DNA of 64,000 nucleotides, from the NCBI RefSeq assembly GCF_003018255.1, contig NZ_CP027440.1; one strand, 5' to 3'. Each line of letters begins with the position of its first letter. Within the stretch, counting starts at the first letter, position 1. Position numbers: made by a program. This stretch comes from Escherichia coli. Lineage in GTDB: Bacteria > Pseudomonadota > Gammaproteobacteria > Enterobacterales > Enterobacteriaceae. Below are positions 24,701 to 27,700 of the stretch, piece by piece.

Positions 24701-27700
24701 GGTGGATAGACATTCACGCCGCATCCGGCAAAAAAACGCCCGCAATAACATCATTCTTCCTCAACACGTTTTACCGCAAATTATCATCACGACTGAAACC
24801 GATTACACCAACCACACCAGCCAAATATTTGTAATATTTTCATATTATTATTCGGCTTTCACAGTTGTTACATTTCTTTTCAGTAAAGTCTTAATTGCAG
24901 ATAACAGCGTTTAATCTATGATGATATAACTCAATTATTTTCATGCACTTAAATCATAACTAAGATAAATGTTAGTGTAAGCGATTACACTGATGTGATT
25001 TGCTTCACATCTTTTTACGTCGTACTCACCTATCTTAATTCACAATAAAAAATAACCATATTGGAGGGCATCATGCCTGACGCTAAAAAACAGGGGCGGT
25101 CAAACAAGGCAATGACGTTTTTCGTCTGCTTCCTTGCTGCTCTGGCGGGATTACTCTTTGGCCTGGATATCGGTGTAATTGCTGGCGCACTGCCGTTTAT
25201 TGCAGATGAATTCCAGATTACTTCGCACACGCAAGAATGGGTCGTAAGCTCCATGATGTTCGGTGCGGCAGTCGGTGCGGTGGGCAGCGGCTGGCTCTCC
25301 TTTAAACTCGGGCGCAAAAAGAGCCTGATGATCGGCGCAATCCTGTTTGTTGCCGGTTCACTGTTCTCTGCGGCTGCGCCAAACGTTGAAGTACTGATTC
25401 TTTCGCGCGTTCTGCTGGGGCTGGCGGTGGGTGTGGCCTCTTATACCGCACCGCTGTACCTCTCTGAAATTGCGCCGGAAAAAATTCGCGGCAGTATGAT
25501 CTCGATGTATCAGTTGATGATCACTATCGGGATCCTCGGCGCTTATCTTTCTGATACCGCCTTCAGCTACACCGGTGCATGGCGCTGGATGCTGGGTGTG
25601 ATTATCATCCCGGCAATTTTGCTGCTGATTGGTGTCTTCTTCCTGCCAGACAGCCCACGTTGGTTTGCCGCCAAACGCCGTTTTGTTGATGCCGAACGCG
25701 TGCTGCTACGCCTGCGTGACACCAGCGCGGAAGCGAAACACGAACTGGATGAAATCCGTGAAAGTTTGCAGGTTAAACAGAGTGGCTGGGCGCTGTTTAA
25801 AGAGAACAGCAACTTCCGCCGCGCGGTGTTCCTTGGCGTACTGTTGCAGGTAATGCAGCAATTCACCGGGATGAACGTCATCATGTATTACGCGCCGAAA
25901 ATCTTCGAACTGGCGGGTTATACCAACACTACCGAGCAAATGTGGGGGACAGTGATTGTCGGCCTGACCAACGTACTTGCCACCTTTATCGCAATCGGCC
26001 TTGTTGACCGCTGGGGACGTAAACCAACGCTAACGCTGGGCTTCCTGGTGATGGCTGCTGGCATGGGCGTACTCGGTACAATGATGCATATCGGTATCCA
26101 CTCTCCGTCGGCGCAGTATTTCGCCATCGCCATGCTGCTGATGTTTATTGTTGGCTTTGCCATGAGTGCCGGTCCGCTGATTTGGGTACTGTGCTCCGAA
26201 ATTCAGCCGCTGAAAGGCCGCGATTTTGGCATCACCTGCTCCACCGCCACCAACTGGATTGCCAACATGATCGTTGGCGCAACGTTCCTGACCATGCTCA
26301 ACACGCTGGGTAACGCCAACACCTTCTGGGTGTATGCGGCTCTGAACGTACTGTTTATCCTGCTGACATTGTGGCTGGTGCCGGAAACCAAACATGTTTC
26401 GCTGGAACATATTGAACGTAATCTGATGAAAGGTCGTAAACTGCGCGAAATCGGCGCTCACGATTAATCTCCTCAGGCTTCCTCCCGTCGTGGAGGAAGC
26501 CACCTCTTGCAGTCATCTTTTCTTCGCTCTATCCTCTGCCGCTATGAAAACATCCCGTCTCCCTATCGCCCTCCAACAGGCCGTTATGCGTCGCCTGCGG
26601 GAAAAACTCGCCCAGGCGAACCTGAAGCTAGGGCGTAACTACCCGGAGCCAAAACTCTCTTACACCCAGCGCGGAACCTCTGCCGGAACAGCCTGGCTGG
26701 AAAGCTATGAAATTCGCCTCAATCCCGTTTTGCTGTTGGAAAACAGTGAAGCCTTTATTGAAGAAGTGGTGCCGCACGAACTGGCACATTTGCTGGTATG
26801 GAAACATTTCGGCCGCGTAGCACCACATGGCAAAGAGTGGAAGTGGATGATGGAAAGCGTGCTGGGCGTTCCCGCCCGTCGTACGCATCAGTTTGAACTG
26901 CAATCCGTGCGCCGCAACACCTTCCCCTACCGCTGTAAGTGCCAGGAACATCAGCTTACCGTACGCCGCCATAATCGCGTAGTTCGTGGCGAAGCCGTCT
27001 ATCGCTGTGTTCACTGCGGCGAACAGCTGGTTGCGAAATAACCACCTGAACTATCAGGAACTTTCCTGATCTGGCTGATTGCATACCAAAACAACTTTCG
27101 CTACGTTGCTGGCTCGTTTTAACACGGAGTAAGTGATGTACCGTTATTTGTCTATTGCTGCGGTGGTACTGAGCGCAGCATTTTCCGGCCCGGCGTTGGC
27201 CGAAGGTATCAATAGTTTTTCTCAGGCGAAAGCCGCAGCGGTAAAAGTCCACGCTGACGCGCCCGGTACGTTTTATTGCGGATGTAAAATTAACTGGCAG
27301 GGCAAAAAAGGCGTTGTTGATCTGCAATCGTGCGGCTATCAGGTGCGCAAAAATGAAAACCGCGCCAGCCGCGTAGAGTGGGAACACGTCGTTCCTGCCT
27401 GGCAATTCGGTCACCAGCGCCAGTGCTGGCAGGACGGTGGACGTAAAAATTGCGCCAAAGATCCGGTCTATCGCAAGATGGAAAGCGATATGCATAACCT
27501 GCAGCCGTCAGTCGGTGAGGTGAATGGCGATCGCGGCAACTTTATGTACAGCCAGTGGAATGGCGGTGACGGCCAGTACGGTCAATGCGCCATGAAGGTC
27601 GATTTCAAAGAAAAAGTTGCCGAACCACCAGCGCGTGCACGCGGTGCCATTGCGCGCACCTACTTCTATATGCGTGACCAATACAACCTGACACTCTCTC

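What the first reader, a model, noticed from the sequence alone, without database searches (positions are those of the whole stretch)
24975..25009. Adjacent GalR-type operator and perfect CRP site in the galP control region
GTGTAAGCGATTACAC (24975..24990) fits the gal operator dyad, and three bases later TGTGATTTGCTTCACA (24994..25009) matches the CRP consensus in both half-sites. The arrangement is consistent with known GalR/GalS and cAMP-CRP control of galP. It is expected rather than novel, but it is an unusually clean example that can be read directly from sequence.
Basis: partly seen in the sequence, partly recalled or inferred. Interest (0 to 1): 0.2.

Follow-up and report, generated by a model that had tools for sequence, protein, structure and literature searches.

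The report
Known galP promoter: GalR operator plus CRP site
This is the already well-studied on/off switch of the E. coli galactose transporter gene galP, a repressor site next to a cAMP-CRP activator site, so the finding is correct but ordinary.

Summary
GTGTAAGCGATTACAC (24975-24990) matches all 12 specified positions of the gal operator consensus. TGTGATTTGCTTCACA (24994-25009) has both CRP half-sites perfect. Chance expects 0.004 and 0.06 such sites per 64 kb.

The window is E. coli, and the sites lie in the metK-galP intergenic region, 98 and 79 nt before the galP ATG (25073). From 24856 onward this region is identical to K-12. The literature lists this 16-mer as a galP operator, the strongest GalR ChIP-chip region in the genome. 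It also describes PgalP as CRP-dependent, with GalR blocking CRP activation (a cAMP AND galactose gate).

New support here:
- 75 of 79 Enterobacteriaceae species keep the operator, and 71 keep a CRP site at exactly the same 19-nt offset.
- A sharp footprint and a fully conserved TAnnnT -10 (25031-25036).
- An ungapped alignment puts operator, CRP site and -10 in register with galETK P1 (-60.5 and -41.5), predicting +1 near 25043.

The module also includes a distal operator (24793-24808) and a NagC operator (25034-25056). The canonical start site could not be read from any accessible paper and is inferred. Verdict: already known, low interest.

The parts
24793..24808 (+). Distal GalR/GalS operator CTGAAACCGATTACAC. 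Its centre is 182 bp upstream of the proximal operator, about -242.5 from the inferred start.
   Evidence: One mismatch to the consensus. Second-best GalR matrix score in the window. Listed as a galP operator in PMC5110547 Table 1. An operator-like site lies 181-185 bp upstream of the proximal one in 70 of 79 species. Mean column conservation 0.89.
24975..24990 (+). Proximal high-affinity GalR/GalS operator GTGTAAGCGATTACAC (centre 24982.5, about -60.5).
   Evidence: Literature: PMC5110547. PATSER GalR score 18.83 in PMC2760140. At most 1 mismatch in 75 of 79 species. The 12 specified positions have 0.98 conservation.
24994..25009 (+). cAMP-CRP site core TGTGATTTGCTTCACA (22-mer 24991-25012; centre 25001.5, about -41.5; class II position).
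   Evidence: PATSER CRP score 12.17 in PMC2760140. At most 1 mismatch at exactly +19 nt from the operator start in 71 of 79 species. Half-sites 0.95 against spacer 0.56 conservation. CRP dependence of PgalP: PMC4073488.
25031..25036 (+). Inferred sigma-70 -10 hexamer TATCTT. There is no -35 match: the -35 position (25008-25013, CATCTT) scores 0 of 6 and is overlapped by the CRP site.
   Evidence: T25031, A25032 and T25036 are 100% conserved in 75 aligned sequences. The hexamer aligns without gaps to the galE P1 -10 TATGGT. No consensus + strand promoter was found by the scan.
25042..25044 (+). Predicted transcription start (+1 about 25043). Inferred, not read from a mapped data set.
   Evidence: Column 70 of alignment A2 is galE P1 +1, derived from OE at -60.5, CRP at -41.5 and ATG at +27 (PMC4693257). 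The locus L083 annotation agrees. That column corresponds to window 25043.
25034..25056 (+). NagC operator CTTAATTCACAATAAAAAATAAC, overlapping the -10 and start region.
   Evidence: Identical to the 23-mer given for galP in PMC3098098. It is the only TTWWTT-N9-AAWWAA match in the intergenic region. A galP-lacZ fusion with this single site is repressed about 5-fold by NagC (PMC4288165).
25073..26467 (+). galP coding sequence (464 aa, galactose/H+ symporter). Shine-Dalgarno GGAGGG at 25063-25068.
   Evidence: ORF list. RefSeq annotation WP_001112301.1 in the 100% identical strain 200164.

Best explanation
The 35-bp segment is the core of the E. coli galP promoter control region. The promoter is a sigma-70 promoter with a weak -10 (TATCTT, 25031-25036) and no -35, so it needs cAMP-CRP bound at 24994-25009. 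That site is centred about 41.5 bp upstream of the start, the class II position, where CRP replaces the -35 contact. GalR, or its paralogue GalS, binds the abutting operator at 24975-24990 (about -60.5) when galactose is absent and cancels CRP activation. This most probably works as at galETK P1, where repressor at -60.5 sits where the RNA polymerase alpha C-terminal domain would dock upstream of CRP and blocks open-complex formation. Galactose releases the repressors, so transcription needs cAMP AND galactose. A distal operator (24793-24808) and a NagC operator over the -10 and +1 (25034-25056) add further repression. Shown by published experiments on identical sequence: GalR occupancy, CRP dependence, GalR antagonism, and NagC repression. 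Shown here: the motifs, their statistics, their conservation, and their register with galE P1. Inferred: the exact start site, the alpha-CTD mechanism, and any loop between the two operators.
For: The motifs are exact and unique in the window. The chance expectation is 3e-9 for the pair at this offset. The locus is metK-galP of E. coli and is identical to K-12 from 24856 to the ATG. Published evidence: this operator is listed for galP, and the region has the strongest GalR ChIP-chip peak (PMC5110547). PgalP is inactive without cAMP-CRP and GalR inhibits the activation (PMC4073488). galP promoter activity responds to cAMP and to GalS (PMC2516365). The NagC operator sequence and NagC repression are published (PMC3098098 and PMC4288165). 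Within E. coli, the 109-bp core is at least 99% identical in 5383 of 5425 genomes, against 3 of 5425 for the whole 441-bp stretch queried, essentially the intergenic region. Across 79 species, 75 keep the operator, 71 keep the CRP site at the same 19-nt offset, and 70 keep the distal operator. The footprint is sharp, with conservation of operator 0.98, linker 0.54, CRP half-sites 0.95, spacer 0.56 and background 0.43-0.51. The -10 TAnnnT positions are 100% conserved. An ungapped alignment with the galE control region puts operator, CRP core and -10 in the same columns. No -35 or consensus promoter is present, as expected for a class II CRP-dependent promoter.
Against: I could not read a mapped start site for the canonical promoter. 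El Qaidi et al. 2009 and Semsey et al. 2007 are not held. The only start site accessible is a 454 read start at -144 (window 24929, 2 reads), which lies upstream of both sites. The -10 is weak (4 of 6). The CRP palindrome followed by a T run also looks like a weak intrinsic terminator. Five of 79 species lack the arrangement, so it is not obligatory for galP expression.
Confidence: 0.93

Rival explanations
1. The sites act downstream of an upstream promoter. Transcription would start at 24929 (-144 from the ATG), and GalR and CRP bound at +46 to +80 would act as roadblocks rather than as a promoter-proximal repressor and activator.
For: PMC2760140 Table S1 lists a 'new' 454 start site for galP at -144, with predicted -35 TAATTGCAG and -10 TCTATGAT.
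Against: The start is supported by only 2 reads. Its -10 (24917-24922) has 0.37-0.53 column conservation, which is background level. By contrast, TAnnnT at 25031-25036 is 100% conserved. A roadblock model cannot explain why PgalP is inactive without cAMP-CRP (PMC4073488). The exact register with galE P1 is not expected under this model. The upstream start may exist as a minor extra promoter.
Confidence: 0.04
2. The CRP palindrome plus T run (24992-25016) is mainly an RNA element. It would be an intrinsic terminator or attenuator hairpin for read-through from metK or from the upstream start.
For: It was flagged as terminator-like. As RNA it folds at -9.3 kcal/mol, z = -4.2 against shuffles. The T run 25013-25016 is conserved.
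Against: Any good CRP site is a palindrome and folds this way. The stem has only 7 pairs, 3 of them G-C. metK already has a strong terminator at 24659-24683. Between species the half-site letters themselves are conserved (0.95), and there is little free covariation. The commonest variant, CGTGA...TCACA, breaks the outer pair without compensation. There is no Rfam match. A minor secondary role is not excluded.
Confidence: 0.03
3. The two motifs are chance matches without function.
For: None beyond the fact that short consensus patterns do occur by chance. With 1-2 mismatches allowed, the window holds about as many matches as shuffles do.
Against: Zero-mismatch expectations are 0.0038 and 0.056 per window, and 3e-9 jointly. 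Position and spacing are conserved in more than 70 species. ChIP and reporter data have been published on identical sequence.
Confidence: 0.001

Closest known systems
E. coli K-12 galP promoter (PgalP) of the gal regulon, as in Weickert and Adhya 1993, Semsey et al. 2007 and El Qaidi et al. 2009 (the latter three known to me only from citations and memory), and as in PMC5110547 and PMC4073488
   Same: It is the same locus. The sequence is identical from 24856 to the ATG. It has the same proximal and distal operators at the published K-12 coordinates (3088186 and 3088004, which are the window coordinates plus 3063211), and the same NagC 23-mer.
   Different: There is no difference in the functional core. 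The strain differs from K-12 only in the distal part of the intergenic region: a 13-bp insertion near 24690-24702 and scattered substitutions, giving 93.7% identity over 441 bp.
galETK P1 promoter (OE at -60.5, CRP at -41.5)
   Same: It has the same three-part geometry to the base: a 16-bp operator, a 3-nt linker, a 16-bp CRP core, 21 nt, and a -10 hexamer. The alignment needs no gaps. Both are activated by CRP and repressed by GalR from -60.5 (PMC4693257; PMC4073488).
   Different: galE has a second overlapping promoter, P2, an extended -10, a poor left CRP half-site (TTTAT), and an internal operator OI at +53.5 that loops with OE. galP has a perfect CRP core, no P2 equivalent that I could see, a second operator 182 bp upstream rather than downstream, and a NagC operator over the start.
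mglB and galS promoters of the gal regulon
   Same: They use the same regulators (GalR/GalS and cAMP-CRP).
   Different: At mglB the repressor and activator sites partly overlap (PMC2516365). At galP they abut without overlap.

Membership tests
GalR/GalS operator of the gal regulon | A 16-bp hyphenated dyad GTGNAANC.GNTTNCAC | tested here: met
   12 of 12 specified positions match. It is the only zero-mismatch match in 64 kb, where 0.0038 are expected.
GalR/GalS operator of the gal regulon | Positions 3, 5, 9 and 15, whose mutation inactivates an operator (PMC5110547), are intact | tested here: met
   G3, A5, G9 and A15 are present in GTGTAAGCGATTACAC. Each is at least 97% conserved in 75 sequences.
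GalR/GalS operator of the gal regulon | Scores like known operators with a matrix that does not include it | tested here: met
   16.8 bits, rank 1 of about 128,000 positions. The training sites score 14.6-22.5.
GalR/GalS operator of the gal regulon | Occupied by GalR in vivo, and the target gene is derepressed without GalR | not testable with these tools
   Published for the identical K-12 sequence: ChIP-chip ratio 115.4, the highest listed, and galP up-regulated in a galR deletion (PMC5110547).
Class II cAMP-CRP-dependent promoter | CRP site TGTGA-N6-TCACA | tested here: met
   Both pentamers are perfect. It is the only such site in the window. The half-sites have 0.95 conservation against 0.56 for the spacer.
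Class II cAMP-CRP-dependent promoter | Site centred near -41.5 from the transcription start, overlapping the -35 position | tested here: inconclusive
   The start site is not available from accessible papers. A start at 25043, which puts the CRP centre at -41.5, is inferred from the conserved TAnnnT at 25031-25036 and the gap-free register with galE P1. A 2-read start at 24929 also exists.
Class II cAMP-CRP-dependent promoter | No functional -35 element, and activity dependent on CRP | tested here: met
   No consensus + strand promoter was found, and the -35 position reads CATCTT (0 of 6). CRP dependence comes from the literature (PMC4073488).
NagC operator | A 23-bp site with TTAATT/TTATTT-type arms separated by 9 nt | tested here: met
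   25034-25056 is identical to the published galP NagC site. It is the only pattern match in the intergenic region. Binding itself was not tested here.
Intrinsic terminator | A G+C-rich stem followed by a U tract that ends a transcript | tested here: inconclusive
   The stem has 7 pairs with 3 G-C, folds at -9.3 kcal/mol, and is followed by 5 T. This is weak and is explained by the CRP dyad. Termination itself was not tested.

The most novel reading that the evidence does not exclude
The operator/CRP pair may be one anchor of a conserved repression loop of about 180 bp whose midpoint carries an unannotated cis element. The midpoint between the distal and proximal operators is 24891.5. The block at 24866-24893 (TGTTACAT-N4-TTTCAG-N6-CTTAA; in most genera TTCAG-N6-CTGAA, a dyad) is 0.77 conserved, against a background of 0.43-0.51. 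It fits no GalR, CRP, NagC or IHF pattern. It contains T24884, the position of a recurrent T-to-A change at -189 that accompanies galP up-regulation in PTS-deficient evolved lines (PMC13298866). If it binds an architectural or regulatory protein, galP would have an additional undescribed input. It may already be covered by papers I could not read, such as El Qaidi 2009.
Probability: 0.2. Interest if true: 0.35.

Novelty: already known. Interest (0 to 1): 0.1.

Why it matters
It matters little for discovery, because the galP control region is a textbook part of the gal regulon. The value is as a positive control: a tool-free reading of raw sequence picked out a real, experimentally validated repressor/activator pair. 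The comparative work adds small but solid points. The operator-to-CRP offset of 19 nt is fixed across more than 70 enterobacterial species and is identical to that of galETK P1. This supports a shared, geometry-dependent repression mechanism in which the repressor occupies the -60.5 position next to a class II CRP.

Tried and rejected
- **Papers not held.** I looked for a mapped galP start site. El Qaidi 2009 (PubMed 19007420), PMC2779859, PMC4288677, PMC2992240 and PMC178683 are not held.
- **Truncated or missing supplements.** The Cappable-seq supplement is cut before 3.08 Mb. PMC4288165 and PMC4073488 have no stored supplements.
- **Sigma-70 consensus scan.** It found no + strand promoter. 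I take this as consistent with CRP dependence, not as evidence against a promoter.
- **Rfam scan of 24500-25200.** Only sub-threshold noise at the metK terminator and REP area.
- **Conserved block 24866-24893.** Scans for GalR, NagC-like and IHF-like patterns found nothing.
- **Other papers read.** PMC2759082, PMC5957442 and PMC10305011 held nothing specific on the galP promoter.
- **First locus search.** It failed because I had the ATG one base off and was corrected.

Full report
**Observation.** GTGTAAGCGATTACAC occupies 24975-24990. After the 3-nt linker TGA, TGTGATTTGCTTCACA occupies 24994-25009. The first string is the only zero-mismatch match to the gal operator consensus GTGNAANCGNTTNCAC in the 64-kb window. 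The second is the only zero-mismatch match to TGTGA-N6-TCACA. From the window's base composition, 0.0038 and 0.056 such matches are expected per 64 kb. For both at this offset the expectation is 3e-9. A GalR weight matrix built from 18 published ChIP-chip sites, with the galP site left out, ranks this site first in the window (16.8 bits). It ranks a second site, 24793-24808, second (16.1 bits).

**Context.** The window is Escherichia coli. The 441 bp around the finding match 5425 of 5426 complete E. coli genomes, and match strain 200164 at 100%. RefSeq annotation places metK (ending at 24639) upstream and galP, the galactose/proton symporter, downstream, with its ATG at 25073. An alignment with a K-12 derivative shows identity at every base from 24856 to the ATG. 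All differences, including a 13-bp insertion, lie further upstream near the metK terminator and a REP-like element. K-12 experiments therefore apply directly.

**What is published on this sequence.**
- **GalR operators.** PMC5110547 lists GTGTAAGCGATTACAC (K-12 3088186-3088201) and CTGAAACCGATTACAC (3088004-3088019) as the two galP operators. These correspond to window 24975 and 24793, offset +3063211.
- **GalR binding and regulation.** The proximal operator has the highest in-silico score in the genome (25.1) and the galP region has the strongest GalR ChIP-chip ratio (115.4). galP is among the promoters up-regulated when galR is deleted.
[quoted passage not shown] - **cAMP and GalS response.** PMC2516365 shows that galP promoter activity depends on cAMP and on GalS.
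- **Matrix scores.** PMC2760140 scores the same two sites with RegulonDB matrices: GalR 18.83 and CRP 12.17.
- **NagC.** PMC3098098 gives the NagC operator of galP as cttaattcacaataaaaaataac, which is window 25034-25056. PMC4288165 reports about 5-fold NagC repression of a galP-lacZ fusion carrying this single site.

**New comparative evidence.** Within E. coli, the 109-bp core (24965-25073) is at least 99% identical in 5383 of 5425 genomes. Only 3 genomes reach 99% over the whole 441-bp stretch queried, which is essentially the intergenic region.

A scan of one genome per species returned 80 galP loci from about 30 enterobacterial genera. In 71 of them metK is found upstream. Among the 79 loci with enough upstream DNA:
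- 75 keep the proximal operator with at most 1 mismatch.
- 71 keep a CRP site with at most 1 mismatch at exactly the same 19-nt start-to-start offset.
- 70 keep an operator-like site 181-185 bp further upstream.

Column conservation in a 75-sequence alignment gives a clear protein-binding footprint:

| Element | Mean column conservation |
|---|---|
| Proximal operator, 12 specified positions | 0.98 |
| 3-nt linker | 0.54 |
| CRP half-sites | 0.95 |
| CRP spacer | 0.56 |
| Intergenic background | 0.43-0.51 |

Downstream, T25031, A25032 and T25036 are 100% conserved while the three bases between them vary. This is the signature of a -10 hexamer (TATCTT in E. coli).

**Geometry and inferred start.** I recalled the galETK control sequence and confirmed it. 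It is a 100% match directly upstream of galE in E. coli genomes. An ungapped alignment with window 24974-25054 puts the operator, the 3-nt linker, the 16-bp CRP core and the -10 hexamer (galE P1 TATGGT, galP TATCTT) in the same columns. PMC4693257 gives OE at -60.5, CRP at -41.5 and the galE ATG at +27. These values fix galE P1 +1 at column 70 of the alignment, which is window 25043.

So the best estimate for PgalP is:

| Element | Window coordinates | Position from the inferred +1 |
|---|---|---|
| Transcription start (+1) | 25042-25044 | +1 |
| CRP site centre | 25001.5 | -41.5 (class II) |
| Proximal operator centre | 24982.5 | -60.5 |
| Distal operator centre | 24800.5 | about -242.5 |
| NagC operator | 25034-25056 | spans the -10 and the start |

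The -35 position reads CATCTT (0 of 6), and the consensus scan finds no + strand promoter. This fits the reported absolute CRP dependence.

**Mechanism.**
- **Shown by others on identical DNA:** GalR occupancy, CRP dependence, GalR antagonism of CRP, and NagC repression.
- **Shown here:** the motifs, their significance, their conservation, and their base-exact congruence with galE P1.
- **Inferred:**
  - GalR/GalS at -60.5 acts as at galE P1. There the repressor-OE complex contacts the alpha C-terminal domain and prevents open-complex formation (PMC4693257).
  - The two operators may cooperate by looping.

**Caveats and rivals.**
- **Upstream start.** The only accessible start is a 454 start at -144 (24929, 2 reads, labelled 'new'), upstream of both sites. 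Its -10 is not conserved. A roadblock model also cannot explain CRP dependence. I treat it as at most a minor extra promoter.
- **Terminator look-alike.** The CRP dyad plus T run was flagged as terminator-like and folds at -9.3 kcal/mol. This is a by-product of any good CRP palindrome. The stem is weak. The commonest variant of the site, CGTGA...TCACA, breaks the outer pair without compensation. Rfam finds nothing.
- **Species without the arrangement.** Five species lack it.

**Verdict.** The feature is already known and experimentally characterised, so interest is low. The most novel thing seen lies outside the finding: a conserved, unassigned block at the midpoint between the two operators. 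It is listed under things noticed in passing.

Noticed in passing
window 24866-24893: A conserved block (TGTTACAT-N4-TTTCAG-N6-CTTAA; in most genera the dyad TTCAG-N6-CTGAA) has mean conservation 0.77 against a background of 0.43-0.51. It lies at the midpoint (24891.5) between the two gal operators. It fits no GalR, NagC, IHF or CRP pattern. T24884 inside it corresponds to the recurrent adaptive T-to-A change at -189 linked to galP up-regulation (PMC13298866). The core GTTTAGTCTGAA is retained even in the remodelled loci L046 and L059.
   Followed up: partly
window 24929 (start), 24917-24922 (-10 TATGAT): PMC2760140 Table S1 lists a 'new' 454 transcription start for galP at -144 from the ATG (2 reads), upstream of the operator and the CRP site. 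Its promoter elements are not conserved between genera.
   Followed up: partly
L046 and L059 (Enterobacter sp. ENT03, kpr-6), -100 to -60 from the galP ATG; L049, L055, L060 (Silvania, Leclercia): Five species have a remodelled galP control region without the CRP site. In L046 and L059 a consensus TTGACA sits directly upstream of the operator GTGTAAGCGATTACAT. This suggests a CRP-independent promoter with the operator in the spacer. In L049, L055 and L060 only one operator-like site remains, at about -138, in a short intergenic region of about 210 bp.
   Followed up: partly
window 24992-25016: The CRP palindrome followed by TTTTT is scored as terminator-like and folds as RNA at -9.3 kcal/mol (z = -4.2). 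This is probably a by-product of the dyad. It would be transcribed only from the upstream start or by read-through from metK.
   Followed up: yes
window 24659-24683 and 24690-24745: The metK intrinsic terminator (10-pair stem, 6 G-C, T run) is followed by a REP-like element (GCCGCATCCGGCA). This strain carries a 13-bp insertion (ACCTCACCGCGG-like, about 24690-24702) relative to K-12. Most of the E. coli polymorphism in the intergenic region is here.
   Followed up: no
window 63121-63135: GTCGAAACGTTTACT scores 15.8 bits with the GalR matrix, third in the window. It lies inside a 1524-aa ORF on the - strand (59164-63738). PMC5110547 lists an in-silico GalR site in sslE, which may be the same one.
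   Followed up: no
window 25173-25188: A weak gal-operator-like sequence, GTGTAATTGCTGGCGC (about 1-2 bits), lies inside the galP coding region about 100 nt after the ATG. From memory, El Qaidi 2009 reported additional low-affinity GalR/GalS sites, but I could not check this.
   Followed up: no
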